Origin: Candidatus Moraniibacteriota bacterium
GTDB taxonomy: Bacteria > Patescibacteriota > Minisyncoccia > Moranbacterales > UBA2206
Length of the DNA stretch: 64,000 nt
Assembly: GCA_037137555.1 (NCBI GenBank)
Contig: JBAXKA010000001.1
Span: 1,874 to 65,873 of the forward strand
Direction of reading: 5' to 3'
The translations under genes were made by a program, and so were the position numbers. The notes beneath the pieces were generated by a model. That model saw nothing but the letters and a program-made list of their open reading frames with translations. It was not told the origin of the DNA and searched no databases. This document shows positions 41,929 to 60,762 of this stretch, in pieces. Each line of letters opens with the position of its first letter. The first letter of the stretch is position 1.

Positions 41929-41952
41929 ATTTATTTTTTTAATTATTACAAT

Positions 41953-43023: not shown

Positions 43024-43042
43024 TGTTTTTTTTTAAATTATA

Positions 43043-43426
43043 TTAAGCTAAAATAACCCTAATTTTTTCCAAAACTTCTGATGGTGTAAAATGTGATTTG
43101 ATTAAATAATCTACTGCTCCCAATTGCATACCTTCACTGATTTCTTTTTTTTGACTTAAGTTTGTTAAAAGAAGCACGGGAATATTTTTAAGTCTATCGT
43201 CTGTTTTAATTTGCTTCAATACTTCAATCCCATTGAGGTATGGCATAATAATATCCAGAAGAATCAAGTCGGGAATATTTTTCTCTGCTTGCAGTTTCTG
43301 TGCTCCCTCTTTGCCATCACTGGCACATATTACATCAAAACCAGACTGAATTAATTTTAAATTATAGATATCCATCACAAAAAAATCATCCTCAATAATC
43401 ATTATCCGTTTTTTTTTATTTTCCAT
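43043..43426 (-). CDS. stand-alone response-regulator receiver domain (CheY/PilH-like)
   Basis: DD at the N-terminus, phospho-acceptor Asp (LLDIIMP) and a conserved Lys (DYLIK). Confidence 0.8.
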   Translation of the reverse strand: MENKKKRIMIIEDDFFVMDIYNLKLIQSGFDVICASDGKEGAQKLQAEKNIPDLILLDIIMPYLNGIEVLKQIKTDDRLKNIPVLLLTNLSQKKEISEGMQLGAVDYLIKSHFTPSEVLEKIRVILA

Positions 43427-43459
43427 AAAATTATAAATTAAAAAATAAATCGATTAACT

Positions 43460-45930: not shown

Positions 45931-45935
45931 ATTTT

Positions 45936-46496
45936 TTATTTAATAGTTATAACTACAGGAAAATTAATTTTATTATTTTTTGTATCAAATTTAGTTTCTC
46001 CCGCAAGCACATTGGAAAAATAATCAAAACTCTTAAAACTTAAAATTTGCTTGGCGATTGTTTCATAGTTATCCGAAAAACAATCCAGGGTAATCGCCTT
46101 TGTTGCATCATCATATTTATAAGAACCAATAAAAACACCTGCTATCATAGCTTCTTCAATTTTTGCAATATCCCGATTACCACTTCGCTCCCTAGCCAAA
46201 AGTTCTTCTGAAATTGTTAATCTGCTCTGAAAATCAACAACTTTACTTGCATCGCTAGCAACAAATCCGAAAGATTTAAGTTTTGAATCATCATCAATAA
46301 GCTTCATGTTATTATCAAGCTGTTTTCCATAAAAAAGCAATCCCCCATAAACCAACAGGATTAACACGAGTACGCCAAGAAGCATACCAATGCCCGCTCC
46401 CAATGCATTACCATCTTCTTTATTTGTGACTAAATTTATATTTGCCATTTTATTTTTATCCCGCGAGATTCCGCTTCGAGCGAAAATATCCAGCAA
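45936..46496 (-). CDS. PilN-like pilus assembly protein
   Basis: Single TM after a short cytoplasmic N-terminus. Located between the PilM and PilO-like genes. Confidence 0.45.
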   Translation of the reverse strand: MLDIFARSGISRDKNKMANINLVTNKEDGNALGAGIGMLLGVLVLILLVYGGLLFYGKQLDNNMKLIDDDSKLKSFGFVASDASKVVDFQSRLTISEELLARERSGNRDIAKIEEAMIAGVFIGSYKYDDATKAITLDCFSDNYETIAKQILSFKSFDYFSNVLAGETKFDTKNNKINFPVVITIK

Positions 46497-46508
46497 GATG
46501 AAATTAAT

Positions 46509-47606
46509 TTATTTATTATTTTTAACTTCTTTTTTAAAATATTCGTCAACACCTTTTAGTGCTGAACCAATCGCTACAGAAAAACCAGCTCGCATTTCAG
46601 AAACCGCATATTCCAATCTGCTGTCGTATCCAATTCCAGAAAGTGGATTGCCGATAACCGTTTTTATTTTCAATTTATTGAAAAAATAACCAGTTAGGCC
46701 AACCATATTAGCCGTTCCACCAGAAAGAATTATTTCAGTTATTTTATCTCTACCCTCTTCTTTATAATATGTTCGGACCATTCTTTCCACTTCTCCTGCT
46801 ATCAATTCCAGTGTATAAAAACTAATCGGCGATTCTGTTGTAAAAAAATTCTTACCAGAAATTTTTAAACTATCAGCTCTCTCAAAATCAATTTGCATTC
46901 CCTTAGCAATTGTATTTGTCATTTCAAATCCTCCTGCGTCAATATTTCTATTAATCCTAATCACGCCCTTTTCTACTAAAATAATATTGCAAATCCTAGC
47001 ACCGATATCCACAATGACAAAGCTTCCAGGATCATTGCCAATAAGCGCACGAGCGATAGAAAAAGTCTCAATATTTATTGATTTTAATTTTAACCCAACG
47101 GTTTTGACTAAATTTTCATATTTCAAAATTTTACTTTTTGACGCTGCTACCAAAAGCACTTTCACTACCATACCAGCACTACTTGTTTCTGTTTTTTTCA
47201 AAACTTCCTTTCTTTCTACAATATCCCAACTAATCACTACATCGTCCAAGGATGTGGGAATATATTTGTGTGCTTCAAATTTAATTGCCTGCTCCATATC
47301 AGCAATTGCCATTTCAGGAAAATCAATCAGCGTTATAAGTCCACCAAAAGATGGCAACGAAGCATATGCATCATCTCCATTAAATTTTGCTTTTTTTATA
47401 ATCTTTTTTATACACGCTGGCAATATAGAATAAAAATATTCGGAATCACTATCTCTTTTACCTAAATTATCACCACGAAGATCCATCCATGCATAATTAG
47501 AAAGCACGGGCTTACCATCAACTATCCTTATTTCTACAATTTTGATTGAGGCTGTCCCCACATCAATACCCAGAAACATATTATTCTTGAAATTAAAATC
47601 AAACAT
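46509..47606 (-). CDS. pilM: type IV pilus assembly ATPase-like protein PilM (actin fold)
   Basis: FLGIDVGTASIKIVE N-terminal actin-like phosphate-1 motif, about 365 aa. Confidence 0.75.
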   Translation of the reverse strand: MFDFNFKNNMFLGIDVGTASIKIVEIRIVDGKPVLSNYAWMDLRGDNLGKRDSDSEYFYSILPACIKKIIKKAKFNGDDAYASLPSFGGLITLIDFPEMAIADMEQAIKFEAHKYIPTSLDDVVISWDIVERKEVLKKTETSSAGMVVKVLLVAASKSKILKYENLVKTVGLKLKSINIETFSIARALIGNDPGSFVIVDIGARICNIILVEKGVIRINRNIDAGGFEMTNTIAKGMQIDFERADSLKISGKNFFTTESPISFYTLELIAGEVERMVRTYYKEEGRDKITEIILSGGTANMVGLTGYFFNKLKIKTVIGNPLSGIGYDSRLEYAVSEMRAGFSVAIGSALKGVDEYFKKEVKNNK

Positions 47607-47638
47607 TGTATAGAATTATATTTTTTATTTTTCTTATT

Positions 47639-48049
47639 TTATGATCTTGAGACAGAAATTAGCATTGTATTTTTATTTATTTTATCATAGGTTACAATAA
47701 CTAAATCGCCCTTTTTGAGATCTGCCAGTTGACCAACAACTGGACTCGCACTTCCAACCATCAACATAACAGGAGTAGCACCATTAATATTGACCACAAT
47801 TGATTCTTGCGGATTTTTTACAGTCAGCGTTTTTTCAGCAATAATCTCTACGCTACCAGTAACAGTTGCAATATTTGCTTTATTTTCTTCTGTATTTTGC
47901 CCAAACAAGTTAGCTGGCTGTTTTTCTCCACCGATAGGTGCTTGCGCCGTACCAGCTTGTTTTTCTTTAATACTCCTAGCAACAAAGAAGATTCCACCGA
48001 AAAGCACTAATAGTGCGAAAGCGATGATAGCAATTTTTTTTCTTTCCAT
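47639..48049 (-). CDS. secreted/membrane-anchored hypothetical protein
   Basis: N-terminal TM (IAIIAFALLVLFGGIFFVA). No known motif. Confidence 0.4.
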   Translation of the reverse strand: MERKKIAIIAFALLVLFGGIFFVARSIKEKQAGTAQAPIGGEKQPANLFGQNTEENKANIATVTGSVEIIAEKTLTVKNPQESIVVNINGATPVMLMVGSASPVVGQLADLKKGDLVIVTYDKINKNTMLISVSRS

Positions 48050-48178
48050 ATTATTTTTTATCTTACTCGCTAAATCGAATTAAAAAAATATTTAATGAGC
48101 AGATTTTTTTATTTTATAAATTATTTTAATTAACTTTTTTATTATATCACATGCTTATTTTTATCGCAATTTATTTTA

Positions 48179-48859: not shown

Positions 48860-51106
48860 ATGCTAAATTATATTTATCAAACAATCCTGCTTATTATTAT
48901 CCCTATGACCAAAAAGAAAATGGACAAAAAAATACCTCGATTGGAACCGCAATTTCATGATGTTTTGATTTGCAAAAAAAATAATTGTCGGCCATTTCTA
49001 GAAATATTAGTTGAAGAGCCAGAAAATATTTCTCATCAAAATCTGGGAATCCTTGTGGGTATTTTTCAAATCGATGATCATAGTGAAGATTCTTCCTATG
49101 TCGTGAACTATTTAATTTCTATCATAAAAAAGGAATATTTCTCGCATACTAATCGCGGACCAGTGGAAAATTTTGAATCAGCTTTGCACAAAGCCAATCT
49201 TGCTCTTGCCAAATTAGCCACCCATGAAAATATCAATTGGATTGGAAAAATTAATGCTCTTTGCGCTGTAATTGAAAAAAATAATCTTTTGCTTTCTCAG
49301 ACTGGCAATGCTTCAGCTTTTCTTTTGCGTGGTAATACTTTCACAGAAATTACTGAGTTACCCTCTGATGAAGAAAATTCCAATCCATTAAAAACATTTC
49401 AGGATGTTATTTCAGGAAAAATCGAAAAAAATGACAAACTTCTTTTTACCACCAAGGAACTTTTTGATATTTTCTCGCTAGAAGAAATTAAAAAAAGTGC
49501 TATTAAGTTCTCTCGCGAAAATTTTGTCCAATTCATAAACACGGCGCTTGTCAATGAACTCGACCAAGTTGCTACGCTAATTGTTGATATTGATGAAAAA
49601 AGCGAAGAAATAATCAGAAACACACCAGCACAAAAAACGAAAGAAATAAATGCTTTTAGCCAAAATGCTTTCAGGAAAGAACCTTCGCCGAAAACAAAGG
49701 CTCAAGAAAAAGTAAAAGAAGAATCTTTGAAAAAAGAACGCCAAGCCATGTTACAAGAATTGAAAAACGAAAAAAATGATTTTATTGATGAAAAAACTGG
49801 ACACATCTATATTAAAGAAGCAGAAACTGACTCATCGCAAGAAACTCCCACAGAAAAAATCGAATTTGATCCCTCCGCTTTCTTTGGCGAAAAATTTTCA
49901 ACGCTATCAATCTTAAGCATTAAGGCGCTTAAAAAAACAACAAATATTACACGAGATTTTTCACTTTCTCTTTGGCAAAAAAGTCGTTCAAGAATTACTA
50001 AAATAAAGCCTGGGACTAGTTGGATGAAAGATAAATCTATTGATGGACTCATTCTGCTCCTGCAAAAACCAACTGCTCTTTCACTTAAATTTATTATTTT
50101 CCTGAAAAAAAATTGGCGTGATTATAAGACAAGCAAATACTCAGAAATAAAACTAAAAAAAATTCTGCCTAATTTTTCTCGCCTAAAACAAATAATCAAA
50201 AATCTCAACCAAACACAAAAGCTTTCTGCCGTGGCAATATTAATTCTGCTTTTAATTGTGCCTTATTGGATTGCGAAGCTAGGAAATGTGCCCGAAAAAA
50301 AACCGGTCGTTGTCGAAGAGCTTCCGGCGATTGTTTTGCCACTCGAAAAAGATCTCAATGTTTCACGAATTGAAAAATTAAACGAAGTTTATCCAATAAC
50401 CGTTGCTAAAATTATTAATCTTAATAATAAATTTTTTGCCCTGAGTGATACGGAAATTATAGATTTAGAAAATAAAAAAAGTCTTTCAATTCCGAATGAT
50501 TTTCAAAATCCCGAATTATTCTTGGGCATGGATGACTTAAATTTAATCTTTCTAATCAAAAACAATCAAACAATTTCGCTCTCCCCCACAACTGGAAAAT
50601 TTCAAAACAATACGCTAGCACTTTCTTCTGGCGAAAAAATAATTGCTGCCAAAACTTATCTGACCTATATTTATTTACTTGATACAAATAACAGCCAACT
50701 CTATCGCGTGCCAAGAGCTGAAGGTGGTTTTGGCGAAAAAGCTTCCTGGCTTAAAGAAAAACTAGATTTATCCACTGCTACGGATTTCGTTATTAATGAA
50801 AATATTTTTATTATCAACAATCAAACTATTCTAAAATTATTTCGTGGAAAAAAACTTGATTTTTCTATCGAAAATACCGCCACAACAATTTTGCCAGATA
50901 AACTTTATGCCAAAAATACCAGCACTAATTTATATGTTCTTGATAAAGTCAACGCCAGAATAATAAAATTAGATGCTACTGGAAAAATTCTTGCTCAATA
51001 TTATAATCAAGCTATCACAACGACAACTGATTTTTCTGTGAATGAAGATGCTAATTTAGTTTATCTTTTGGATACAACTGGCGTAAAAAGTTTTGAAATG
51101 AATTAA
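48860..51106 (+). CDS. large membrane protein: N-terminal PP2C-like (apparently degenerate) domain, one TM, about 270-aa extracytoplasmic C-terminal domain
   Basis: GILVGIFQIDDH...ALCAVIEKNNLLLSQTGNASAFLLRG...NDKLLFTTKELFD follows the PP2C motif order, but the metal-binding Asp residues appear substituted. TM at LSAVAILILLLIVPYWIA. Confidence 0.45.
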   Translation: MLNYIYQTILLIIIPMTKKKMDKKIPRLEPQFHDVLICKKNNCRPFLEILVEEPENISHQNLGILVGIFQIDDHSEDSSYVVNYLISIIKKEYFSHTNRGPVENFESALHKANLALAKLATHENINWIGKINALCAVIEKNNLLLSQTGNASAFLLRGNTFTEITELPSDEENSNPLKTFQDVISGKIEKNDKLLFTTKELFDIFSLEEIKKSAIKFSRENFVQFINTALVNELDQVATLIVDIDEKSEEIIRNTPAQKTKEINAFSQNAFRKEPSPKTKAQEKVKEESLKKERQAMLQELKNEKNDFIDEKTGHIYIKEAETDSSQETPTEKIEFDPSAFFGEKFSTLSILSIKALKKTTNITRDFSLSLWQKSRSRITKIKPGTSWMKDKSIDGLILLLQKPTALSLKFIIFLKKNWRDYKTSKYSEIKLKKILPNFSRLKQIIKNLNQTQKLSAVAILILLLIVPYWIAKLGNVPEKKPVVVEELPAIVLPLEKDLNVSRIEKLNEVYPITVAKIINLNNKFFALSDTEIIDLENKKSLSIPNDFQNPELFLGMDDLNLIFLIKNNQTISLSPTTGKFQNNTLALSSGEKIIAAKTYLTYIYLLDTNNSQLYRVPRAEGGFGEKASWLKEKLDLSTATDFVINENIFIINNQTILKLFRGKKLDFSIENTATTILPDKLYAKNTSTNLYVLDKVNARIIKLDATGKILAQYYNQAITTTTDFSVNEDANLVYLLDTTGVKSFEMN

Positions 51107-51112
51107 TTACAT

Positions 51113-51964
51113 TTATATTAGATATTTTTTCAAAAGACCCTTAAAAATTTCTTGATAGTTATCAGCTAGTTTTTTCGTTGCTTCAGGACTGAGCGTTAGA
51201 TTTTTCAAATCAGCATAAATCCCTTGTGTTGCAACACCGCTCACTCGCTCAGAAAGTAAGTGCCAAAGATCAGCATAACCGCCAATTTCAATTCCCTGCT
51301 CTGTTTTTATAATTTCTTTTACTCGTGCCAGATTTGGCCAATAACCTTTTTCCAAAAACCAAATTAAATCATAAAAATCTCGTCCACGAAAATCATATTG
51401 ATTAAGAAAGATTTTTCCCTTTCTACCCAAAATTGCTCCAATTTTTCCCGCAAATAAAGTTGGGAAATCATAACTCTCCACCACAAAAAAAAGATTATTT
51501 TTCATAATAGCGGTTTTTTGAGTCGCAAAATGCTCATAATGATTATTTTCTACCTCTATTTTCAAATGCAAGAAATTTGTTTGTGCCTTATTGTCGCACA
51601 ATCCTAATTTTTCCAATATTGGAAATTTTAAAGTAATCACCTTTCCATTGGATTTAATTGATAGTTCAGCATCCGGAAAACCCATTTTTTGAAATCTTTC
51701 CAATAAATCAACAGAAAATGCCTGTGAATCAAACTCCCGTTCCAAATTATCCAAGTCCAAATCTTCCGAAAGTCTGGCGGTTTCGCCCAAAACCCGCAAT
51801 GCCGTTCCGCCAGTAAAAATCAGATTGCTCCATCTGGGTGAATTATAAATAAAATCCAGACAAGCCAAAATCATAAATTCCTTTAATTGAATTTTTATAA
51901 TCTCCCCTGACAGCCTGCCCACTTTGCCATCCCTTACAATTTCTTCTAATTTTTCTAAAATCAT
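51113..51964 (-). CDS. abiEii: AbiEii/AbiGii-family nucleotidyltransferase toxin (type IV TA, DUF1814)
   Basis: NLIFTGGTALRVLGETARLSEDLDLD matches the GGTAL...RxSxDxD signature. Confidence 0.7.
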   Translation of the reverse strand: MILEKLEEIVRDGKVGRLSGEIIKIQLKEFMILACLDFIYNSPRWSNLIFTGGTALRVLGETARLSEDLDLDNLEREFDSQAFSVDLLERFQKMGFPDAELSIKSNGKVITLKFPILEKLGLCDNKAQTNFLHLKIEVENNHYEHFATQKTAIMKNNLFFVVESYDFPTLFAGKIGAILGRKGKIFLNQYDFRGRDFYDLIWFLEKGYWPNLARVKEIIKTEQGIEIGGYADLWHLLSERVSGVATQGIYADLKNLTLSPEATKKLADNYQEIFKGLLKKYLI

Positions 51965-52590
51965 TTATGCTCAATTAATTTAATTAATTTATACACTATT
52001 TGCATTTTTTTTCCCGCAAGATTAAGATATTTTTCAAATTCCAACCAATCTTGCTTAGTAAAAACTTCAAAATTAATTCTTAAATCAAGAATATCATTCC
52101 CAGAAACAATCTTTTTTTTTCTTAATTTCAGACGCAAAAAATCAAATAGTGCCCTTGCCTTAGTTGCTTCATACCAAATCATATCTCCATACTTCTTTTT
52201 CTCAAAACCAGAAAATAACCCAGGATCAATTGAATAATAATTAAAACTACCGAATTGATTTTTGATTGTTGTTGTTTTTTTTGTAGTCATCAGTGAATAA
52301 CCAAAGACAACATCCGTGAGTGCTTGATATTCCTGCAATATAAATTCTGCACTCAAATAGCTCGGCTCAATCAATTTTGTTCCTAAAAATCTAGCATAAT
52401 AGAGAGAGTTATCACTCTTATCAATAAAATTTTTAAAAACATAAAAACCTCTTTTAACAGGCAAGAGTTCTTCTTTTTTTTGCCAATAACTAATATAATT
52501 TCGTAGCGTATTTAAATTAGGCTTATTTAAAGCCTTCCCGAGTGCAGTTTTAGAAATATAGGGCATTCGTTGTATATCCTTTTTTTCCAT
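51961..52590 (-). CDS. abiEi: AbiEi-like antitoxin/transcriptional regulator (by position and size)
   Basis: About 209 aa, immediately upstream of AbiEii with a 4-bp overlap. The N-terminus is predicted helical. Weak by sequence. Confidence 0.5.
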   Translation of the reverse strand: MEKKDIQRMPYISKTALGKALNKPNLNTLRNYISYWQKKEELLPVKRGFYVFKNFIDKSDNSLYYARFLGTKLIEPSYLSAEFILQEYQALTDVVFGYSLMTTKKTTTIKNQFGSFNYYSIDPGLFSGFEKKKYGDMIWYEATKARALFDFLRLKLRKKKIVSGNDILDLRINFEVFTKQDWLEFEKYLNLAGKKMQIVYKLIKLIEHK

Positions 52591-52814: not shown

Positions 52815-53564
52815 ATGTTATCAGGAATTATCGCAGGATTGAAGAGTTTGTCTGGTTTCGGCGTAGAAGTTGCCGCCGATGCAGCAGTAATAAAAGGAAT
52901 CCCAGCCATATGGGGCTGGCTCAAGAAAAGTAGAGAAACGCTTTCTCCTGAGGCAAAGGAGAAATTAGACAAATTCCTTCTTAGTCCGATTAATTCGGAC
53001 GGAAGAACGAGGGAAGATGAAATGGTTTTTTCCGTTTCATTATTCACATTGCCAGGAGTGCCACAATGGATAAAAGAGCTTTTTATCAAGAAGCACGATG
53101 AGCTCTTGAATCCAGATTTATCAGGAAAGTCTCCTGATGAAATAAAAAAATTAAAAGAATGGGAGAGGAGGGCAAAGGGATTTATTTTCCTTATTGCCAC
53201 CGATCCCACGGTCAAGGAGATTGACGAAAGCAAGCGATTTGTTTTCGCCAAAAAAATATGGTATGGAATTTTTTCAGAAGTTGAAAAACTTCCAAGCGAT
53301 GACGCTCGACTCGAAAAGTTTGAGCGGGACATTTTGCTCTGGGGAAAGAATTACCAGGAAAAAATGTCCAAAGAAGAATTGCTAGAAAAAACTAGCGCCT
53401 TTTTTAAGGAAGCTGATTCCGTAATAGCAAGCGGAATCGACCTTATCTCGGGAAAAATAAATTCCCAATGGGACGAGATTGAAACGCAAAGAGTTGCACG
53501 TAAAAATCTCCCATGGAAGGGAAATGCAACCGAAAAAATATGGGGCTGGCTAATGGATTGCTAG
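52815..53564 (+). CDS. hypothetical soluble protein (first gene of a GC-richer two-gene module)
   Basis: Strong RBS AAGGGGGAA. No recognisable motif. Local GC is clearly above the window background. Confidence 0.45.
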   Translation: MLSGIIAGLKSLSGFGVEVAADAAVIKGIPAIWGWLKKSRETLSPEAKEKLDKFLLSPINSDGRTREDEMVFSVSLFTLPGVPQWIKELFIKKHDELLNPDLSGKSPDEIKKLKEWERRAKGFIFLIATDPTVKEIDESKRFVFAKKIWYGIFSEVEKLPSDDARLEKFERDILLWGKNYQEKMSKEELLEKTSAFFKEADSVIASGIDLISGKINSQWDEIETQRVARKNLPWKGNATEKIWGWLMDC

Positions 53565-53585
53565 TACCCACAATAGGAGGAAAAA

Positions 53586-54791
53586 ATGAACACGATGGGT
53601 TCATTGAGAGCGTTTTTCGCAGCTTTTCCCCGCATGGTACAAGGAGAATTGCGTGGTCTGAGGAATCTGCTTCTGCGGTTAGCAGGAGCACTTTGTTTTC
53701 TTTTTCTTTTCCAGCTGACGATGGACAGTTATATTTTTTCGTCTGTCGTAGGAATTGTTTTGTGGATATTTAGTTTTTTATGGATAGTAAATATCCGCAG
53801 GATAACAAATATGGCAATCGTCGGAGAGGCTTTTGAAGCTCTTCATATAACACCAATAACACCCGCCGAAAGATCAGCTGAAGGGGCTGCCGCAATAGTG
53901 GTCAATCCCCTCAATGATCTTTTCTGGCGGGTTTCGCTGCAACTGTTTTTTTTCATGACAGTTGCAGCGTTAGTTGTTCCGCTGTTACCATTGCGGAACA
54001 ACCCCGCGCTAGTTTTTCTTTTCCCCTTGATGCTAGTCGCTTCGGCGATTGCATTTAGGGGAGCCGTGCTCATCACGGCGAATATATTGTCCGGAATTTT
54101 CATTGCTGGACTAATCATGTTTCATTGCGGGATGTTATTTCTCCCGCAAATTCTATTAATTTTCCCATCATTCGCAACAGAGTATGTTGCGAAGTTCAGA
54201 ACGGGAAATCTCGCTGGCAGAAATGCTAGCGAGCTTGGTGAAATCGTCACAATTCGTGAGCGACAACGCCAAGAAATGGTCGCCGAGGCTATGGGAAAAG
54301 CTCGGCGATGGCAAGAACAAAATCGGGGGAAGCCTCTCCCTGTGGAAATTGAGCGAGACATAGAGGCAGCGAAGCAAGGCCTGAGTCTGGCTGAATTACA
54401 AGCCAGACTCAAGGCCGAAGCCGACGCCAAAGCGAAAGCCGAGGCGGAGGCAAAAGCCAAGGCCGAAAAAGCCGAAGCAGAAGCAAAGGCGAAAGCCCAA
54501 GCTGAAGCCAAGGCTTTGGAACTCCGCCGACAAGCTGAAAAGCTTGAGGCAGAAAAAAACAAAATAAAAACCATCAGCAATGGGTATGTTTTACGCCCTG
54601 CCGATGGTGGCGTCGTCTGCTTGACGATGCAGGCGGGCGACTGGAATGTTTTTCCAGCTAATACAAGAATGAAGGAAGCGGGTGATAAGATTCCAAGGGA
54701 AACCGGAGGGGAAATGTTCGTTTCTAGAGAAACGACCTCATGCTTTTTCCCCTCCCCTGGCACGAGGGAAATCGTGCTAACGAAAAAATAA
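53586..54791 (+). CDS. hypothetical membrane protein with a long Ala/Lys/Glu coiled-coil and a C-terminal globular region
   Basis: RBS AGGAGG. About six TM helices (residues about 25-200), then KAEADAKAKAEAEAKAKAEKAEAEAKAKAQAEAKALELRRQAEKLEAEKNK, then a 70-aa C-terminal region. Confidence 0.5.
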   Translation: MNTMGSLRAFFAAFPRMVQGELRGLRNLLLRLAGALCFLFLFQLTMDSYIFSSVVGIVLWIFSFLWIVNIRRITNMAIVGEAFEALHITPITPAERSAEGAAAIVVNPLNDLFWRVSLQLFFFMTVAALVVPLLPLRNNPALVFLFPLMLVASAIAFRGAVLITANILSGIFIAGLIMFHCGMLFLPQILLIFPSFATEYVAKFRTGNLAGRNASELGEIVTIRERQRQEMVAEAMGKARRWQEQNRGKPLPVEIERDIEAAKQGLSLAELQARLKAEADAKAKAEAEAKAKAEKAEAEAKAKAQAEAKALELRRQAEKLEAEKNKIKTISNGYVLRPADGGVVCLTMQAGDWNVFPANTRMKEAGDKIPRETGGEMFVSRETTSCFFPSPGTREIVLTKK

Positions 54792-54880: not shown

Positions 54881-55576
54881 TCATCTTAATAAGAAATCCA
54901 CTGTTTTAATTGCAATAAATCCAGATAACGCCACAACCAAACCAATAATCGAAGCCACCATTGTTTTCTTGGCTTTTTCAACCATCTTCTCATCCGTTGC
55001 TACTAGAAAATATTGAAATCCGGAAATTATAAATCCAATAATTGCAATAATCCCAACGATACTCAAAAGCCAATCAACAACATTAGTGAGAATACCTTTT
55101 ACTAAATCTGGATTGGCTGGTAATCCTACATCTGGAATATCTAAGTCACCTCCAGATGTTCCACTTTTTGTAGCTGAACAACTAACAGAATCACATGTTC
55201 CAGTGAGTGCACAACTCCAAGTCCATGGACCAGTCCCAGTAACAGAAGTGTTTGTTCCCGTAGAACAAAGATTAGTAGTAGGTTTACTTGTAAATGGACC
55301 AGAAGAACCGCATACACAGAGAGTTGCAGATCCACTTTTTGTAGCCGAACAATTAACGGAATCGCATACCCCAACAGCATCACAACTCCACTGCCACGGA
55401 CCAGCTCCTGTAACAGAAGTGTTATTTCCCGTAGTGCAAAGACCAGTGGTAGGCTTACTTGCGAATGGACCAGAAGAACCGCAAGTACAAGGTGCTGCCA
55501 AAACCTGCTCTGTCATCAAAAACCCACCCCCGAAAACTATCACCATCATCAAAAACAATTTCATTTTATTTTGCAT
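54881..55576 (-). CDS. secreted protein with two tandem about 55-aa Cys-containing repeats and a C-terminal VirB2/TrbC-like (T4SS-pilin-like) hydrophobic module
   Basis: Internal repeat C(T/V)CGSSGPF(A/T)SKPTT(G/N)LC(T/S)TG(N/T)NTSVTG(A/T)GPW(Q/T)WSC...CDSV(N/S)CSATKSG occurs twice. C-terminus VVDWLLSIVGIIAIIGFIISGFQYFLVATDEKMVEKAKKTMVASIIGLVVAL. Confidence 0.5.
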   Translation of the reverse strand: MQNKMKLFLMMVIVFGGGFLMTEQVLAAPCTCGSSGPFASKPTTGLCTTGNNTSVTGAGPWQWSCDAVGVCDSVNCSATKSGSATLCVCGSSGPFTSKPTTNLCSTGTNTSVTGTGPWTWSCALTGTCDSVSCSATKSGTSGGDLDIPDVGLPANPDLVKGILTNVVDWLLSIVGIIAIIGFIISGFQYFLVATDEKMVEKAKKTMVASIIGLVVALSGFIAIKTVDFLLR

Positions 55577-56414
55577 ATTTTTTTATTTTAAAATTTTTAA
55601 CATGTAACATTTTTGCGTTTTTACTTGTGAGCACTTTTTTACCAGTTTCACTTTCAATATCTTTGCGTGCATTCCCCGCTATTCCTCCACCAACGCGTGC
55701 CACGATTTCATTTTCAGCTAAATTTTTCGGCTCGCGTTTTTTGGAAATTTCCATCGTTGCAGTTTCTGCCAGCATATTCAAAACCAATTCCATATTGGTC
55801 ATATTATCTCGCAAATTTTCTTTTTTGAGATTTTTTAAATTTTTATACTCCTTGGTTGTGAGTCCTGTCCACGCCTGAGTAATTTCATTCGTCAAAATAG
55901 CAAATTCCAAACCTTCTTTCACTCCGCGTTTTTCCCACTCATCAGTCAAAGTTTTTCTGATTTCAATACTTTTTAATCTTTGATTAACCCAGTTTTGACT
56001 GTAGCCTTTTTGTAAATAAGTTTTCAACGCACGATCAATCGCTAATTCCGGATCGGCTGTTTCTTCCAGTCTTTCATAGCCCACCCGTGCAAGCCAAAGC
56101 TTGAATGGCTCAGCGTTTGGTGAAGGAATTGATTGGATGAGCCGAAGCATAACTTCAGTGTCCACAGTATCAGTCAAATATAACTTGCCATCGCTAGCCA
56201 ACATTTTCAGTTGGTTACATTTTGTAACCAACTCACTTCCCTCAGTTTTTAAGCGGCTCTTAAACACTTTCCAGTAATTTCTAGGGTCAGTACTTTTAGT
56301 CAGCACTCCTATGACATCAACCACTGAAAAATACCACAACTCTTTTTCCGCATCCCAATGACGACGAATTTGACTGCCTTCGAAAATTGCAACTGTTTTA
56401 ATTTTTTTTTGCAT
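55566..56414 (-). CDS. DinD-like (DNA-damage-inducible protein D) / Bro-N domain protein
   Basis: N-terminus FEGSQIRRHWDAEKELWYFSVVDVIGVLT (Bro-N-like), with middle and C-terminal regions aligning by eye to E. coli DinD (recalled from memory). Confidence 0.55.
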   Translation of the reverse strand: MQKKIKTVAIFEGSQIRRHWDAEKELWYFSVVDVIGVLTKSTDPRNYWKVFKSRLKTEGSELVTKCNQLKMLASDGKLYLTDTVDTEVMLRLIQSIPSPNAEPFKLWLARVGYERLEETADPELAIDRALKTYLQKGYSQNWVNQRLKSIEIRKTLTDEWEKRGVKEGLEFAILTNEITQAWTGLTTKEYKNLKNLKKENLRDNMTNMELVLNMLAETATMEISKKREPKNLAENEIVARVGGGIAGNARKDIESETGKKVLTSKNAKMLHVKNFKIKKYAK

Positions 56415-56567
56415 ATTTTCTTATTTTAAATTTTTAATAATTATTTTTATATTTTTAGTATAGCATAAATAAAAAAAATTAACCAAGCAAAAAAGTATTA
56501 CTTTTTATATACCATAGTATATTAAATAACCTATTTTTTTCAATATTTCAAAAATAATTCCCACAAA

Positions 56568-56948
56568 CTAGATACCTCCCTGTCCAGTCAATAAGGCGTC
56601 CGCCGCATAAATTATCACTAATCCGGAAATTGCCACAACAACACCGAGGATAGAATTAACCATGGCTTTTTTGGCTAGCTTGATCTGTTCCTCCTGTCCA
56701 GCTGATGTGAGATACATTATGCCAGCAATTGCAAAACCAATCACACCAACAATTCCCACGATTCTTAATAACCAATTCAATACACCAGTAAGAATATCGC
56801 TGATAGTTGCACTTGATAGGCCAGTGTTGGTCATAGCACCAGGATCCCATCCTGTTGCCATCGCTATTTCCCCGAAAACAAATAAACCGATTACACTCAA
56901 TCCCACAACTGAAAAAACTTTTTTTATGCTTGTTTTTTTTCTTTGCAT
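56568..56948 (-). CDS. VirB2/TrbC-like (T4SS-pilin-like) small membrane protein, paralogue A
   Basis: Signal/TM, then ISDILTGVLNWLLRIVGIVGVIGFAIAGIMYLTSAGQEEQIKLAKKAMVNSILGVVVAISGLVII. Confidence 0.55.
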   Translation of the reverse strand: MQRKKTSIKKVFSVVGLSVIGLFVFGEIAMATGWDPGAMTNTGLSSATISDILTGVLNWLLRIVGIVGVIGFAIAGIMYLTSAGQEEQIKLAKKAMVNSILGVVVAISGLVIIYAADALLTGQGGI

Positions 56949-57059
56949 TGTATTTATTTTAAATTATTAATTACACTAAAATTATAGCACAAATCTAAAA
57001 ATAAAAACAATCCCAATAAATTGGAACTGTTTTTATTTAAACTAACAAAAATATTTTTA

Positions 57060-57431
57060 CTAGAATGTTCCCGTTCCTTTGAGCATTGCGTTTGCTGCGC
57101 TAAGTGCCACAACACCAACTAATGCCACAATTACTCCAATAATAGAATTAACCATTGCGCGCTTAGCAGCCTTGATTCTGTCTTCGTCTCCCGCTGCTGT
57201 AAGATAGAGAATTCCAGAAATCGCAAAACCAATCACACCAGCAATTCCCACTGCGGTCAAAAGCCACTTCATGATACCAGTTACAATTTCCATCAATGAT
57301 CCTCCTGGAAGATTCGTTCCTCCGCCTGCTGTTGGATCGAAAGCTCCCGTAACGGCACCAAAAACCACAGCTGGCAAAGTCAATGCCAAGAGTGAAGCTC
57401 CGTATGTCAATCCTTTAATTTTATTTTTCAT
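57060..57431 (-). CDS. VirB2/TrbC-like (T4SS-pilin-like) small membrane protein, paralogue B
   Basis: LMEIVTGIMKWLLTAVGIAGVIGFAISGILYLTAAGDEDRIKAAKRAMVNSIIGVIVALVGVVAL, about 60% identical to paralogue A. Confidence 0.55.
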   Translation of the reverse strand: MKNKIKGLTYGASLLALTLPAVVFGAVTGAFDPTAGGGTNLPGGSLMEIVTGIMKWLLTAVGIAGVIGFAISGILYLTAAGDEDRIKAAKRAMVNSIIGVIVALVGVVALSAANAMLKGTGTF

Positions 57432-57470
57432 GAAAACACCTCCTTCTATTTTTATTTTTTATTTTCAAAT

Positions 57471-58634
57471 TTAGCCAGTAATCAAAATTTTTATTTGCTC
57501 GACTGCCACAAGCGAACCGAGGGCAACAATAATTCCAATGATCGCATATGTTCCCATTTTCTTAGCTGTCTTTATTCGCTCATCATCACCATAAGCTGTC
57601 ATATACATACTGCCAGCAATCACTAAACTAATTATAGCAATGATTCCCACAATCGACAAGAGCATTGACAAAACTCTTGTCGCAATATCTTTAATCGTTG
57701 GTGCTCCCTGGAGTTCACTCCCAGGCAAATTGCCTCCCAAAATTTCTTGCACTTGTGCCAAAAATGTTGGTGCCGCAATTACAATCGCCAAACCAATCAC
57801 CGCACCAGTCCAACAATCTTTCGCTCGCTTCAACATTGTAGGATCCCCCGCTGACATCATATACAAAATTCCACCCAACACAATAAAAATAATCGCCAGC
57901 GTAACCACAAAACCTTTCAAAGCAGTCAAAAGCCCAGTCAAAACCCCCTCAATACTATTAAAGTTAAGTGGATTAACAAAAGAAGCAGAGGTGCTACTAG
58001 TGCCCGAATTAGATCCTGTACAATAAGTAGTACATGCGCCCTCCTTTATTGAACCCTTTGCGCATGTTCCATCTGTTTTTGGACTATCGCAAGTTGCAGT
58101 ACTGCCACTACCATCCACACAACATTTGGAGCTTGTGCAATAAGAAGAGCAATCATTATCTTTCTTTTTGCCAACAGCACATTTTCCATCAGCATCAGGA
58201 ACTCCTGGACATTCATTGGGAGTTTTACTTTCATCAACACAACATCCTCCTTTTGTACCACCGCATTTACTAATTTGATTACAAGGTTTTTCTGTTGGTT
58301 TTCCTGATGAGCAACTCCCCCCAGGAAAAACATCCGTACATTTATCCTCACAACACCATTTTTCAGCTGTGGCACACTCCTTGTCAATTGGACTACCATA
58401 GCCAGAACATACAGAAAGATTTCCATCGCAACAACCTTCTTGCGTACCCCTTGTGTATTCAGTGCATTTTTGACAAACCCCCGCAGCTACACAATCACCA
58501 GCAGTTTCAGCTGAATGACATTGATTATTGAAATAACAACAGTCTGGATATGCATTAACAATACCTCCCCCAAAAACTCCCATCAACATAATCACAAAAA
58601 CTGCCAGACTAAAAAAATATTTTTTCTTTTGCAT
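57471..58634 (-). CDS. Cys-rich surface protein fused to two tandem VirB2/TrbC-like pilin modules
   Basis: Signal/TM, then about 180 aa with more than 30 Cys (CCxxNxC, CxxC patterns), then two copies of the W/LLxxxGxxAIIxxVxxGxxYMxxxGDxxxxKxAK module. Confidence 0.5.
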   Translation of the reverse strand: MQKKKYFFSLAVFVIMLMGVFGGGIVNAYPDCCYFNNQCHSAETAGDCVAAGVCQKCTEYTRGTQEGCCDGNLSVCSGYGSPIDKECATAEKWCCEDKCTDVFPGGSCSSGKPTEKPCNQISKCGGTKGGCCVDESKTPNECPGVPDADGKCAVGKKKDNDCSSYCTSSKCCVDGSGSTATCDSPKTDGTCAKGSIKEGACTTYCTGSNSGTSSTSASFVNPLNFNSIEGVLTGLLTALKGFVVTLAIIFIVLGGILYMMSAGDPTMLKRAKDCWTGAVIGLAIVIAAPTFLAQVQEILGGNLPGSELQGAPTIKDIATRVLSMLLSIVGIIAIISLVIAGSMYMTAYGDDERIKTAKKMGTYAIIGIIVALGSLVAVEQIKILITG

Positions 58635-58658: not shown

Positions 58659-60035
58659 TTATTTCATTTCCAACTTCCGAATTCTTTCTTCGGCTGTTCG
58701 CAAGGCATCTGACACACTGGAAATACCTTTGTTCACATTATCAATCATCTCGGCAAAAATTGCTTCTGTTGCCACAGGATCAAGTTGCATCCAATTTTTA
58801 GCTGTCAGATTACCTTTGGCAAAAATGCCTAAATCCATATCGGCTTTTTGTTTTTCAATTAAATCTCTTCTGGCGGCTGGTTGTTTAGTTTTTTCCAAAT
58901 ACGCTTCCGCTGCATCTATTGCACTGACTGGTTTTTTTACGACTGTTGTGGCTGAAGTCGCAGCTGTCAGTGACGCTTCAACTTTTGTTGTGAGATAAGT
59001 CAAAAATTTCCAGGCTTCCGCCACACGAATTTCATTTGTGATTGGAGCTGTTGTGCTTCTTGGATCAACTTCAATAATTTTATTGCCAGCCACTGCATAG
59101 CCCCAATAGTTTGCATAATTAACTGGAACACTAAGATTTACTTGCGGAGCATCGGCCACTGCAAAATTTAATTTTGGTGATTTACTTCGAATAACTGGCA
59201 GTTGCCAAGAATAATTTAGCATCATCGCCAGTGTTCCCTCGGAAAAAGCATCAACAGAATAATGTGATTGTGTATTCCAAGAAAAGTTAGGCGCTCCGCT
59301 TGTGGAAAATTGTGTATAAAAATCCAAGGCCTTTGTGGCACCAGCATCATTGCCAAAAGAAACGCGATTACTTGTGTCTCGCAACCTTGCTCCATTTTGT
59401 AGCATCAACATGCCCAAAACATCGGTTGAACGATTGATATTATAGGCCATTCCCATCGCTGCGCCGGAAGGATTGATTTCTCCAACTGCATTAATTTTTG
59501 TAATTTTTTCGGTTATTGCCACAAATTCATCCCAAGTTTTTGGTGGAGCAGTTACACCCGCCGCATTAAATAAATCTCGATTATAATAAAGTGCGAGCGA
59601 ATTAGCTGAAAGTGGCACAGCAAAAACATCACCTTTGGAAACAAAATCATCGGCACAAACATCCACAAAATCTTTGCGAAATTTTTGTTCTGTCAAGATT
59701 GTTTTTGGTGCAGCAACTATCTTATTCGAAAAAGTTGGCAACCAGGTATTGTGAATTAAAAAAATATCTGGTCCTTTGCCTGACGCCAAAGCATCAATCA
59801 AATCTTTTTCATAAGTCTCAATTCTTTGTTTTTTATAGACAATTTCACCAATATTAGGATTTATTTCACGATAACTTTTGAAAATTTCGCCAAAAGTATC
59901 ACTGTCATCAATCGCCCCCCAAACTTCCAGATTGACTTTATATCTATTCACCGTTGGTTTACATCCACAACCAGAAATAGTCAGGAGACCGATAATTAAA
60001 CAGGCTGTCGAAAATAATTTAAATTTAGTTTGCAT
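58659..60035 (-). CDS. extracellular solute-binding lipoprotein (ABC transporter SBP family 1, sugar-type)
   Basis: Lipobox LTISGCGC, about 458 aa, SBP_bac_1-like periplasmic fold features. Confidence 0.7.
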   Translation of the reverse strand: MQTKFKLFSTACLIIGLLTISGCGCKPTVNRYKVNLEVWGAIDDSDTFGEIFKSYREINPNIGEIVYKKQRIETYEKDLIDALASGKGPDIFLIHNTWLPTFSNKIVAAPKTILTEQKFRKDFVDVCADDFVSKGDVFAVPLSANSLALYYNRDLFNAAGVTAPPKTWDEFVAITEKITKINAVGEINPSGAAMGMAYNINRSTDVLGMLMLQNGARLRDTSNRVSFGNDAGATKALDFYTQFSTSGAPNFSWNTQSHYSVDAFSEGTLAMMLNYSWQLPVIRSKSPKLNFAVADAPQVNLSVPVNYANYWGYAVAGNKIIEVDPRSTTAPITNEIRVAEAWKFLTYLTTKVEASLTAATSATTVVKKPVSAIDAAEAYLEKTKQPAARRDLIEKQKADMDLGIFAKGNLTAKNWMQLDPVATEAIFAEMIDNVNKGISSVSDALRTAEERIRKLEMK

Positions 60036-60040: not shown

Positions 60041-60634
60041 TTATTTTTCAAAAATTATTCCAAAATGGAAATGACTAATTTCAATTTCTCGCACAATAGT
60101 TAGACCGCAATCTTTGGCTAATTTTAAAATTTCTGTTTTCGAAATACGCAGATCACTAGTTGGACCGAAAGTTGAATCACCCATATTCCATTCGATAACT
60201 AAAACTTTTCCACTTTTTTTCAAAACACGCACGGCTTCTTCAAAAATTAAATTTTTACTTTTATTTTGAAACAGCATATTGACCAAGCACACCAAATCCA
60301 AACTGTCGGCTTCTAATTTTGATCCACCAGTCATTTCTAAGTTCGCTCGCTTAGTCACTACATTATTAAGTCCCAAAATTTTTGCTTCTGATTCGATGGC
60401 TTCTAATTTTTCTTTTAAAATATCCAAAGCATACACCACGCCACTATCCCCCACTTTTTGTGCCAAGGGAAAAGTGAAATAACCAGTGCCTGCTCCGAAA
60501 TCTCCGATTAACATTCCAGTTGTAATTTCCAGCGTATCAATAATTGCTGAAGGATTAATAAATTTCAAGCCAGAAGATGCTTCGTCTGCTCCACCAAAAT
60601 TATTGCCTGTTATTTTTTTTTCTTGTTTTTCCAT
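60041..60634 (-). CDS. class I SAM-dependent methyltransferase
   Basis: Motif I LIGDFGAGTGYFT. Start placed at MEKQEKK (60634) rather than at the start of the long ORF. Confidence 0.7.
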   Translation of the reverse strand: MEKQEKKITGNNFGGADEASSGLKFINPSAIIDTLEITTGMLIGDFGAGTGYFTFPLAQKVGDSGVVYALDILKEKLEAIESEAKILGLNNVVTKRANLEMTGGSKLEADSLDLVCLVNMLFQNKSKNLIFEEAVRVLKKSGKVLVIEWNMGDSTFGPTSDLRISKTEILKLAKDCGLTIVREIEISHFHFGIIFEK

Positions 60635-60762
60635 TTTAGTTTTTTTTAAAAAAATATTTTTTAATTCTCTACTTCTATATATTACAACTAAATTAAAAAA
60701 ACGACAAGCCAGCATAAACTACAGTCTTTACATAAGTTGTTTTTAATGCTAGCTTTAACTAT

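What the first reader, a model, noticed from the sequence alone, without database searches (positions are those of the whole stretch)
54881..58634. Cluster of four paralogous VirB2/TrbC-like pilin genes, including repeat-containing and Cys-rich fusions, with a DinD/Bro-N gene but no T4SS ATPase in the window
Four consecutive minus-strand genes end in the same hydrophobic module (W/LL-x3-VGI-x2-VIGF-AI-x-G-x2-Y-x3-G-x5-K-x-AK-x2-M-x3-I-G-x2-V-A). This module resembles conjugative T4SS pilins (TrbC/VirB2) and is distinct from the type IV pilins elsewhere in the window. Two genes encode bare pilin-sized proteins of 126 and 123 aa. One has two tandem 55-aa Cys-containing repeats N-terminal to the module. 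One has a domain of about 180 aa with more than 30 cysteines followed by two tandem pilin modules. Pilins with large Cys-rich extracellular extensions are unusual and may be adhesin-tipped or host-contact pilins of an episymbiont. A DinD/Bro-N-like gene is interleaved. A sugar-type SBP lipoprotein and a methyltransferase follow.
Basis: partly seen in the sequence, partly recalled or inferred. Interest (0 to 1): 0.65.

Follow-up and report, generated by a model that had tools for sequence, protein, structure and literature searches.

The report
Patescibacterial VirB2-like pilin gene array
This is a chromosomal array of four VirB2-like "T4SS pilin" genes in a Moranbacteria (Patescibacteria) genome; such arrays have been described since 2023-2025, but here some subunits carry swappable cysteine-rich outer domains and the array sits in a conserved operon with a sugar-binding lipoprotein, far from any secretion ATPase.

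Summary
Four minus-strand genes (231, 126, 123 and 387 aa) carry five copies of one two-helix module. All four score above Pfam's cut-off for PF18895 T4SS_pilin, and the 387-aa protein also passes TrbC/VirB2.

The organism is a Candidatus Moraniibacteriota MAG, and NCBI already calls the 387-aa protein "pilin". VirB2-like pilin arrays of 2-11 genes in Patescibacteria are published (PMC12102498; PMC10633639), so the core finding is a known kind.

What I add comes from 79 related species:
- The array is lineage-wide, with about 5 genes per locus.
- It usually holds one double-module pilin and one to three pilins with Cys-rich N-terminal ectodomains (Cys 6.7% vs 0.7% background).
- The ectodomains are mosaic between strains, while the modules track phylogeny.
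- In 54 of 70 loci a MalE-like lipoprotein lies directly upstream, usually preceded by a methyltransferase.
- No VirB4 lies within 10 kb in any locus. Yet 8 of 9 such genomes listed in the published table have VirB4 elsewhere.

The interleaved Bro-N gene belongs to a candidate defence and phage family (PDC-S13), so it is probably an insertion.

Most likely these are subunits of a T4SS-dependent surface filament whose variable ectodomains contact the host. This is inferred, not shown. Interest is moderate.

The parts
60041..60715 (-). Class I SAM methyltransferase and first gene of the co-directional cluster. The true start is probably the internal Met at about 60637, giving about 197 aa as in relatives.
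   Evidence: Pfam Methyltransf_31/25/11. It lies directly upstream of the SBP in 45 of the 54 loci that have the SBP next to the array. It has a weak PADLOC mad2 hit.
58659..60035 (-). MalE-like family-1 solute-binding lipoprotein (lipobox LTISGC), 24 nt upstream of the first pilin gene, with no ABC permease or ATPase gene beside it.
   Evidence: Pfam SBP_bac_1 at 6e-26. The best PDB relative is a maltodextrin-binding protein, 1elj, at 3e-18. It lies directly upstream on the same strand in 54 of 70 related loci, median gap 26.5 nt.
57471..58634 (-). 387-aa double-module pilin. It comprises a signal peptide, a Cys-rich ectodomain (aa 29-205, nt 58020-58550, 28 Cys, two or three 40-aa six-Cys units), module 1 (nt 57735-57980) and module 2 (nt 57474-57722).
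   Evidence: PF18895 56.6 bits with 2 stretches; PF04956 32.6 bits against a cut-off of 27.9. The AF2 model has four long helices forming two hairpins. Cys positions are and the internal units. NCBI MEI7425358.1 is named 'pilin'.
57060..57431 (-). 123-aa bare pilin, the best-conserved paralogue (77-78% module identity to orthologues) and the candidate major subunit.
   Evidence: PF18895 30.6 bits; orthologue identities.
56999..57038 (-). AT-rich terminator-like hairpin after the 123-aa pilin gene, followed by a TGcTATAAT promoter-like site before the next pilin gene.
   Evidence: These are consensus matches only.
56568..56948 (-). 126-aa bare pilin.
   Evidence: PF18895 35.6 bits.
55566..56414 (-). 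Bro-N / DinD-like gene inserted in the array. It belongs to candidate defence family PDC-S13 and to phage family phrog_15286, and is probably not part of the pilus system.
   Evidence: Pfam Bro-N 32.6 bits; PADLOC PDC-S13 8e-131; phrog_15286 7e-126. It sits at the same position in L008 and L009, and is absent from the arrays of L002 and L005.
54881..55576 (-). 231-aa pilin. It comprises a signal peptide, two 57-aa six-Cys repeats (nt 55154-55495) and one pilin module (nt 54884-55150).
   Evidence: PF18895 44.2 bits; repeats. The repeat family also occurs in non-pilin proteins.
53586..54791 (+). 401-aa polytopic membrane protein with a Lys/Glu/Ala coiled coil and a small C-terminal domain, convergent with the array and 90 nt from its end. 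Possible partner; function unknown.
   Evidence: No Pfam, PHROG or PADLOC hit. Homologues lie convergent in 16 related loci (17 hits with the window itself), 61-314 nt after the array end in 15 of them and 1,495 nt in L078. In 47 of 67 loci the next large ORF is convergent, and in 33 it is multi-TM. GC3 is atypical at 0.46.
52815..53564 (+). 249-aa protein of unknown function, upstream of and co-directional with the 401-aa gene.
   Evidence: Homologues lie at the same relative place in 6 related loci. No family hit.

Best explanation
The locus is the Moranbacteria version of the Patescibacteria VirB2-like pilin array.

Each gene encodes a Sec-exported protein with one or two helical hairpins. 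Each hairpin has two hydrophobic helices joined by a short Lys-rich loop.

By homology with TrbC/VirB2 pilins, the hairpins first sit in the cytoplasmic membrane with both ends outside. A VirB4-powered, monoderm-type T4SS encoded elsewhere in the genome then extracts and polymerises them into a surface filament.

The bare 123- and 126-aa proteins would form the shaft. The 231- and 387-aa proteins carry disulfide-rich N-terminal ectodomains that would lie on the filament surface or tip and contact the host cell. These ectodomains are exchanged as cassettes between strains, as expected for host- or phage-driven diversification.

The array is co-transcribed with an orphan MalE-like lipoprotein and a methyltransferase, whose roles are unknown. 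The Bro-N gene is an unrelated mobile insertion.

Shown here: family membership, architecture, lineage-wide conservation, mosaic ectodomains, SBP linkage, and the absence of a nearby VirB4.

Inferred: export, polymerisation, T4SS dependence, and host contact.
For: Family and architecture:
- PF18895 is above the gathering score for all four proteins, and PF04956 for the 387-aa protein.
- Signal-peptide-like N-termini and paired hydrophobic segments.
- Four long helices forming two hairpins in the AF2 model.
- The array fits the published description of 441 Patescibacteria VirB2 arrays of 2-11 genes, in tandem or split by a non-pilin gene, with low mutual identity (PMC12102498).

Link to a T4SS:
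- The pilin array of Southlakia epibionticum lies in its T4SS cluster and is essential (PMC10633639; PMC12857230).
- VirB4 is listed as present in 8 of 9 genomes that carry this type of array.

Conservation and variation:
- 82 loci hold arrays averaging 4.9 genes, and 67 have a double-module pilin.
- 100 Cys-rich extended pilins; Cys 6.7% against 0.69% background.
- Ectodomain identity is uncoupled from module identity.
- P0126 keeps an identical signal peptide and module with a different ectodomain.
- GC3 of the pilin genes is native.
Against: - No VirB4, VirB6, VirB3 or VirD4 was found in the 64-kb window.
- None of the large-ORF families within 10 kb of the array in the 79 related loci that I scanned (one representative each) is VirB4-like. 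They are housekeeping genes, plus two Pfam-less families that precede the arrays lacking the SBP. Singleton ORFs were not scanned.
- T4SS presence in this very genome was not testable.
- The relation to bona fide VirB2 is remote. hhalign probability is 26%, with only helix 1 in register. The bare pilins miss PF04956.
- Fold searches return generic helical bundles and no T4SS pilin.
- One related array-bearing genome is listed without VirB4.
- Proteins with up to 17 concatenated modules exist. This is not obviously compatible with subunit-by-subunit pilus assembly.
- No filament has been seen in any Patescibacterium, according to the literature read.
Confidence: 0.6

Rival explanations
1. T4SS-independent envelope module. 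The hairpin proteins stay in, or just above, the cytoplasmic membrane as oligomeric scaffolds or a short conduit. They work with the co-transcribed oligosaccharide-binding lipoprotein and the convergent polytopic membrane protein to capture or import host-derived glycans. The Cys-rich ectodomains act as surface-displayed binding domains.
For: - The SBP lies directly upstream on the same strand in 54 of 70 loci, median gap 26.5 nt, and the linkage survives rearrangement of IF-2.
- No ABC permease or ATPase is near the SBP.
- No VirB4 lies within 10 kb in any locus.
- A convergent polytopic membrane protein follows the array in many loci.
- Polyproteins of up to 17 hairpins look like polytopic membrane proteins.
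- A review speculates that the Patescibacteria T4SS and pilus serve uptake.
Against: - Profile homology is to pilins of a secretion machine.
- In Saccharimonadia the arrays lie inside essential T4SS clusters.
- Most related genomes do have VirB4.
- Bare pilins with no ectodomain are the best conserved members.
- SBP adjacency is missing in 16 of 70 loci.
- No precedent exists for such a system.
Confidence: 0.2
2. The module is a generic two-helix membrane anchor unrelated to VirB2, and the cluster is a family of anchored surface proteins that merely resembles pilins.
For: - The hhalign link to bona fide VirB2 is weak.
- Fold searches are non-discriminating.
- A PDB sequence search finds no pilin.
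- NCBIfam Mbov_0395 hits are below the cut-off.
Against: - All four proteins pass the curated PF18895 threshold, and the 387-aa protein and most of its homologues also pass PF04956.
- Two members are nothing but signal peptide plus module, so they anchor nothing.
- The same family sits next to virB4 in 1135 assemblies.
Confidence: 0.07
3. The array is a remnant of an integrated conjugative or mobile element, brought in together with the Bro-N gene and the neighbouring AbiE toxin-antitoxin pair.
For: - Bro-N is a phage and defence-type gene.
- AbiEi/AbiEii lie at 51113-52590.
- Regional GC is raised.
- An independent assembly breaks inside the Bro-N gene.
Against: - The array sits at the same chromosomal place, beside infB, DUF4446, the MTase and the SBP, across dozens of species.
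- GC3 of the pilin genes equals that of housekeeping genes, so the GC rise comes from amino-acid composition.
- No relaxase, integrase, VirB4 or VirD4 was found in the window.
- Bro-N is absent from the arrays of L002 and L005.
Confidence: 0.03

Closest known systems
VirB2-like pilin arrays of Patescibacteria (Quinonero-Coronel et al. 2025, PMC12102498; essential array of Ca. Southlakia epibionticum ML1, Wang et al. 2023, PMC10633639)
   Same: Same Pfam families (PF18895, PF04956). Tandem paralogues with low mutual identity, sometimes split by a non-pilin gene. Chromosomal, with no relaxase. Same phylum.
   Different: - In Southlakia the array lies inside the T4SS cluster. Here, and in 79 related species, no VirB4 lies within 10 kb.
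- Here the array is in an operon-like unit with a MalE-like lipoprotein and a methyltransferase.
- The double-module pilin and the Cys-rich mosaic ectodomains are not mentioned in the papers I could read.
TrbC/VirB2 conjugative pilins of diderm T4SSs (Agrobacterium VirB2, RP4 TrbC, F TraA)
   Same: Long signal peptide, two hydrophobic helices joined by a short basic loop, small size of the bare members, and profile similarity (PF04956 passed by the 387-aa protein).
   Different: - Very remote in sequence (hhalign probability 26%).
- Monoderm host.
- No adjacent VirB1, VirB3 or VirB4, whereas the six plasmid virB2 genes I fetched sit between virB1 and virB3.
- Large N-terminal domains and tandem hairpin fusions are not features of the classical pilins.
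Amplified, variable VirB2 paralogues of Bartonella and Anaplasma T4SSs (as cited in PMC12102498)
   Same: Several divergent pilin copies in tandem, interpreted as variation of a host-exposed surface.
   Different: Those vary within the pilin itself. Here the modules are conserved (65-78% to orthologues) and variation is concentrated in appended Cys-rich domains that are swapped as cassettes.
Mycoplasma ICE Mbov_0395 pilin-like conjugal transfer protein (NCBIfam NF045849)
   Same: A two-helix pilin-like protein of a wall-less or monoderm lineage; weak profile similarity (26-34 bits).
   Different: Scores are below the curated cut-off of 40. There is no ICE context here.

Membership tests
Pfam PF18895 T4SS_pilin | Whole-protein score above the curated gathering cut-off (26.6 bits) | tested here: met
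   44.2, 35.6, 30.6 and 56.6 bits for the 231-, 126-, 123- and 387-aa proteins.
Pfam PF18895 T4SS_pilin | N-terminal signal peptide followed by a hairpin of two hydrophobic helices with a short charged loop | tested here: met
   Hydropathy segments; helices 228-260/265-299 and 314-346/351-386 in the AF2 model. Signal-peptide cleavage is inferred from sequence only.
TrbC/VirB2 pilins (Pfam PF04956) | Score above the gathering cut-off (27.9 bits) | tested here: inconclusive
   The 387-aa protein scores 32.6 bits (met). The 231-aa protein scores 24.3 bits (below). The two bare pilins give no hit. hhalign against six bona fide plasmid VirB2/TrbC proteins gives probability 26%.
TrbC/VirB2 pilins (Pfam PF04956) | Fold match to solved T4SS pilins | tested here: inconclusive
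T4SS pilus system | Pilin gene encoded with VirB4 and other mating-pair-formation genes | tested here: not met
   No VirB4, VirD4, VirB11 or VirB6 family hit in the window. None of the large-ORF families scanned within 10 kb of 79 related arrays is VirB4-like; they are housekeeping genes plus two Pfam-less families.
T4SS pilus system | VirB4-type T4SS present somewhere in the same genome | not testable with these tools
   Only this contig could be read. Indirectly, 8 of 9 related array-bearing genomes are listed with VirB4 in Table S1 of PMC12102498.
T4SS pilus system | Subunits polymerise into an extracellular filament | not testable with these tools
   Needs microscopy or proteomics. No multimer prediction was available.
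Patescibacteria VirB2 arrays (PMC12102498) | [quoted passage not shown] | tested here: met
   Four genes and five modules, 25-44% identity to the first module, with one interleaved Bro-N gene.
Type IV pilins (T4P) | Class III signal peptide with the N-methylation motif (PF07963) | tested here: not met
   No N_methyl hit in the four proteins. The true T4P pilins at 39095-40009 have it.
Mbov_0395 ICE pilin-like protein (NF045849) | Score above the curated cut-off (40 bits) | tested here: not met
   26.2-34.2 bits.
ABC sugar importer (for the adjacent SBP) | SBP encoded with permease and ATPase subunits | tested here: not met
   The SBP is flanked by the methyltransferase and the pilin gene. No permease family hit in any scanned ORF of the window, and the one ABC_tran protein (10257-11708) is a tandem-ATPase type far away.
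PADLOC PDC-S13 / phrog_15286 (for the Bro-N gene) | Full-length profile match | tested here: met
   8e-131 over residues 6-273; 7e-126 over residues 6-268. The family is only a candidate defence system with no tested function.

The most novel reading that the evidence does not exclude
In Moranbacteria the pilin array has become a self-contained operon of methyltransferase, orphan oligosaccharide-binding lipoprotein and pilins, with a convergent polytopic membrane protein. This operon would build a host-contact conduit for nutrient capture. The filament or membrane tube delivers or exposes host glycans to the SBP. The cassette-swapped Cys-rich ectodomains set host range. Covalently concatenated 'polypilins' (2 to 17 hairpins) would represent an undescribed way of building such a structure, possibly without VirB4.
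Probability: 0.15. Interest if true: 0.8.

Novelty: new variant of a known kind. Interest (0 to 1): 0.42.

Why it matters
Patescibacteria are a large share of bacterial diversity and live attached to host cells. Their T4SS and its pilin array are the only such system shown to be essential for growth, and nobody knows what it transports or how it recognises a host.

This locus shows three things for one large order. The pilin genes are kept apart from the secretion ATPase. They are tied to a sugar-binding lipoprotein. The variation is concentrated in exchangeable disulfide-rich outer domains.

This gives concrete candidates for host-range determinants and for a link between the filament and nutrient uptake. 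It does not change the known picture, which is that these are VirB2-like pilin arrays.

Tried and rejected
- Structure of the 231-aa protein from a 6-sequence alignment. pLDDT was 46, which is unusable, so no fold search was run.
- Homologue search with the Cys-repeat ectodomain alone. It gave only 4 hits because the word index handles this low-complexity sequence poorly. It did show that the repeat also occurs in non-pilin proteins.
- PDB sequence search with the pilin profile. The only hit was a spurious one to photosystem II CP43.
- The 748-aa ORF at 48860-51106 as a possible VirB4. It has no Walker A motif and no family hit, so I rejected it.
- The 401-aa polytopic protein as VirB6/TrbL. 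It has no Pfam hit even at E = 10 and only 5 database homologues, too few for a good model. This is left open.
- Locating the T4SS of this very genome. Exact-protein look-ups returned only short ENA and Logan contigs of the same organism. The MAG (MEI7425358.1, locus tags WCK16_) is not in the supplementary tables of PMC12102498. I had no Patescibacteria VirB4 sequence to search with.
- Foreign origin of the array, suggested by the GC rise at 52-60 kb. I rejected this because GC3 of the pilin genes is native and the rise lies in GC2.
I repeated it with window-only modules.

Full report
**1. What is in the sequence**

Between 54881 and 58634 the minus strand carries five ORFs.

| ORF | Size | Content |
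|---|---|---|
| 57471-58634 | 387 aa | double-module pilin |
| 57060-57431 | 123 aa | bare pilin |
| 56568-56948 | 126 aa | bare pilin |
| 55566-56414 | 282 aa | Bro-N gene |
| 54881-55576 | 231 aa | pilin with two Cys repeats |

- Four of the five end in the same hydrophobic module, and the 387-aa protein has it twice.
- Each protein starts with a Lys-rich, hydrophobic, signal-peptide-like segment. Each module is a pair of hydrophobic stretches.
- The 231-aa protein has two 57-aa repeats, 72% identical, with six Cys each. At DNA level this is a 171-nt tandem repeat at 55160-55483.
- The 387-aa protein has 28 Cys in residues 32-205. This stretch includes two or three copies of a 40-aa six-Cys unit.

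**2. Family**

- All four proteins pass Pfam PF18895 (T4SS_pilin) above the gathering score. The 387-aa protein also passes PF04956 (TrbC/VirB2). The 231-aa protein falls just short, and the two bare pilins do not hit PF04956.
- NCBIfam gives only sub-threshold hits to the Mycoplasma ICE pilin-like family.
- None of the four has the N_methyl motif of type IV pilins, which the true T4P pilins at 39-40 kb do have.
- An AF2 model of the 387-aa protein built from 31 homologues (pLDDT 67.5) shows four long helices forming two hairpins. The Cys-rich part is small beta hairpins of uncertain fold.
- Structure searches returned only generic helical bundles, so they say nothing either way.
- A profile-profile comparison with six bona fide plasmid VirB2/TrbC proteins, which I fetched between virB1 and virB3, aligned helix 1 in register at only 26% probability.
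- These are therefore members of PF18895 and remote relatives of classical VirB2.

**3. Organism and prior knowledge**

- The 387-aa protein is NCBI MEI7425358.1, 'MAG: pilin [Candidatus Moraniibacteriota bacterium]', on a 74.5-kb contig.
- Quinonero-Coronel et al. 2025 (PMC12102498) searched 3,035 Patescibacteria genomes with PF04956 and PF18895. They found VirB2-like pilins in 1,948 VirB4-containing assemblies, near virB4 in 1,135 of them.
- Wang et al. 2023 showed that the pilin array inside the T4SS cluster of Southlakia epibionticum is essential (PMC10633639).
- A 2025 review speculates about a pilus that serves uptake from the host (PMC12857230).
- The core of the finding is therefore a known kind of locus.
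- The papers I could search do not mention cysteine-rich or multi-module pilins, nor Moranbacteria arrays.

**4. Context in the window**

- I scanned the ORFs of the 52-61 kb region and most of the other large ORFs against Pfam, including every ORF of 477 aa or more.
- The window holds a type IV pilus cluster at 39-48 kb (PilB, PilT, PilC, PilM, PilO and pilins), toxin-antitoxin pairs, restriction-modification genes and housekeeping genes.
- No scanned ORF hit a VirB4, VirD4, VirB11, VirB6 or relaxase family, and none hit an ABC permease family.
- Upstream of the array and co-directional with it lie a class I methyltransferase (60041-60715) and a MalE-like lipoprotein SBP (58659-60035). The SBP ends 24 nt before the first pilin gene.
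- Downstream and convergent lie a 401-aa polytopic membrane protein and a 249-aa protein with no family.
- An independent assembly extends the right flank into rbfA, a DHH protein and rpoC.

**5. Related loci**

A scan of one genome per GTDB species returned 79 loci, nearly all Moranbacteria-type. I analysed these with a local module HMM, together with two loci fetched by exact protein look-up.

- *Array composition.* Every locus with enough sequence has an array. There are 403 pilin genes in 82 loci, a mean of 4.9 per array, and 67 arrays have one double-module pilin. 112 genes have an N-terminal extension of at least 70 aa, and 100 of these have at least 4 Cys. Cys frequency is 6.7% in the extensions against 0.69% in other ORFs.
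- *SBP and methyltransferase.* In 54 of 70 loci with enough upstream sequence the SBP lies directly upstream on the same strand, median gap 26.5 nt. In 45 of those the methyltransferase precedes it. The linkage persists where infB has moved.
- *No nearby VirB4.* Representatives of the ten main families of large ORFs within 10 kb are iPGM, NusA, H+-PPase, UvrD, GyrA, RNase J, an SBP_5 protein, a TPR protein, and two Pfam-less families that precede the arrays lacking the SBP. None is VirB4-like, though ORFs that did not cluster were not scanned.
- *VirB4 elsewhere.* Eight of the nine array-bearing genomes that appear in the published Table S1 are listed as having VirB4. In this lineage the T4SS ATPase is evidently encoded elsewhere.
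- *Convergent membrane protein.* Homologues of the 401-aa protein lie convergent in 16 related loci (17 hits including the window), 61-314 nt after the array end in 15 of them. In 33 of 67 loci the next large ORF is a convergent multi-TM protein.

**6. Variation**

- Modules are 65-78% identical to their orthologues, but ectodomains are mosaic.
- The 387-aa protein's ectodomain is 72% identical to that of L002 and 22% to that of L008, although both modules are 70.9% identical.
- The 231-aa protein's repeats resemble L005 (51%), not the closer L002 and L008 (26%).
- A close relative (P0126) has an identical signal peptide and module but a different ectodomain.
- The Cys repeat of the 231-aa protein also occurs in non-pilin proteins.
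- This is cassette exchange at the exposed end, which fits selection by hosts or phages. No binding function was shown.

**7. Size of the family**

- An exhaustive profile search found 57,703 cluster representatives at E <= 1e-3 and 4,762 at E <= 1e-10.
- Among the best hits are proteins with 4 to 17 modules behind a single signal peptide.
- The double module is therefore one step in a widespread series of 'polypilins'. I found no description of these in the literature searched.

**8. The interleaved gene**

- The Bro-N/DinD-like protein matches PADLOC candidate defence family PDC-S13 (8e-131) and phrog_15286 (7e-126) over its full length.
- It sits at the same place in the two closest species (L008, L009). 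Those two species keep a fourth, 277-327-aa pilin that this genome lacks. It is absent from the arrays of L002 and L005.
- An independent assembly breaks inside the gene.
- I read it as a mobile insertion, not a part of the pilus system.

**9. Origin**

The GC rise at 52-60 kb comes from second codon positions, that is from Gly, Ala, Ser, Thr and Cys codons. GC3 of the pilin genes (0.26-0.35) equals that of housekeeping genes. Only the 401- and 249-aa genes have atypical GC3, at 0.46 and 0.40.

**10. Mechanism**

- The most likely account (0.6) is that these are Sec-exported hairpin subunits, first held in the membrane and then polymerised by a VirB4-type monoderm T4SS encoded elsewhere.
- The 123-aa protein is the best conserved and its gene is followed by a terminator-like hairpin, so it would be the main subunit.
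- The extended proteins would display disulfide-rich domains for host contact.
- Family, architecture, conservation, mosaicism and gene linkage are shown. Export, polymerisation, T4SS dependence and binding are inferred.
- The main rival (0.2) is a T4SS-independent envelope module working with the orphan SBP and the convergent membrane protein. It draws on the strict SBP linkage, the absence of nearby VirB4, and the polypilins.
- A generic anchor (0.07) and an integrated mobile element (0.03) are unlikely.

**11. Verdict**

The locus is a real, correctly described member of the published Patescibacteria VirB2-like pilin arrays. Three lineage-specific traits appear undescribed: Cys-rich cassette ectodomains, a double-module pilin, and an operon with a MalE-like lipoprotein kept apart from virB4. 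I rate it a new variant of a known kind, with interest 0.42.

Noticed in passing
window 38900-48100: A complete type IV pilus cluster: PilB 43460-45130, a response regulator 43043-43426, PilT 41953-43023, PilC 40720-41928, PilM 46509-47606, a PilO-like protein 45130-45930, and N_methyl pilins 39095-39490 and 39644-40009. This genome therefore has two unrelated pilin systems within 20 kb.
   Followed up: partly
window 55566-56414: The Bro-N/DinD-like gene matches PADLOC candidate defence family PDC-S13 and phage family phrog_15286 over its full length. It is inserted in the pilin array of this species and its two closest relatives only, and an independent ENA assembly breaks inside it.
   Followed up: partly
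proteins P0141, P0143, P0145, P0146, P0149, P0151, P0236: 'Polypilins': single proteins with 4 to 17 tandem T4SS_pilin hairpin modules behind one signal peptide (for example 1775 aa with 17 modules). I found no description of them in the papers searched. Their taxonomic origin was not determined.
   Followed up: partly
window 52815-54791: The convergent 401-aa polytopic protein and the 249-aa protein have atypically high GC3 (0.46 and 0.40, against 0.25-0.33 for neighbours) and no family hit. The 401-aa family lies within 61-314 nt of the array end in 15 other species.
   Followed up: partly
L011 6312-9614, and the same place in L013, L031, L032, L039: In the sub-lineage whose arrays lack the upstream SBP, two other large proteins without Pfam family (615-804 aa and 472-591 aa) sit directly upstream of the pilin array instead.
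   Followed up: no
window 48860-51106: A 748-aa ORF with no family hit in Pfam, PHROGs or PADLOC. It has an N-terminal soluble part, one hydrophobic segment near residue 460, and a repeat-like C-terminal half. It has no Walker A motif and is not a VirB4.
   Followed up: partly
window 51113-52590; L002 17041-17769; L042 9244-10104: An AbiEi/AbiEii toxin-antitoxin pair lies just beyond the array. AbiEii homologues recur near the array end in at least two other species.
   Followed up: no
window 18918-23034 and 31264-38908: A dense set of defence-type genes: a GmrSD/HNH protein, a GIY-YIG protein, an EcoRI-like methylase, R.Pab1 with an N6 methylase, two MNT/HepT pairs (34244-35170, 38035-38908), and three AAA_14/DUF4143 ATPases (21733-23034, 35226-36365, 36581-37891).
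   Followed up: no
window 14322-16013 and 16119-17123: A GH5 cellulase (563 aa) and a RhuM/Fic-domain protein. The glycoside hydrolase may be relevant to an epibiont that also carries an orphan oligosaccharide-binding protein.
   Followed up: no
C-termini of the bare pilins (window 57060-57431; L002, L005 orthologues): Many pilins of the arrays end in a Gly/Thr-rich tail closed by an aromatic residue (..GTGTF, ..GGNQF, ..GTPLF, ..AQPLF). The mature N-terminus seems to start at a conserved F/W-D-P motif, echoed by F-x-N-P just before module 1 of the double pilin. These may be processing signals.
   Followed up: no
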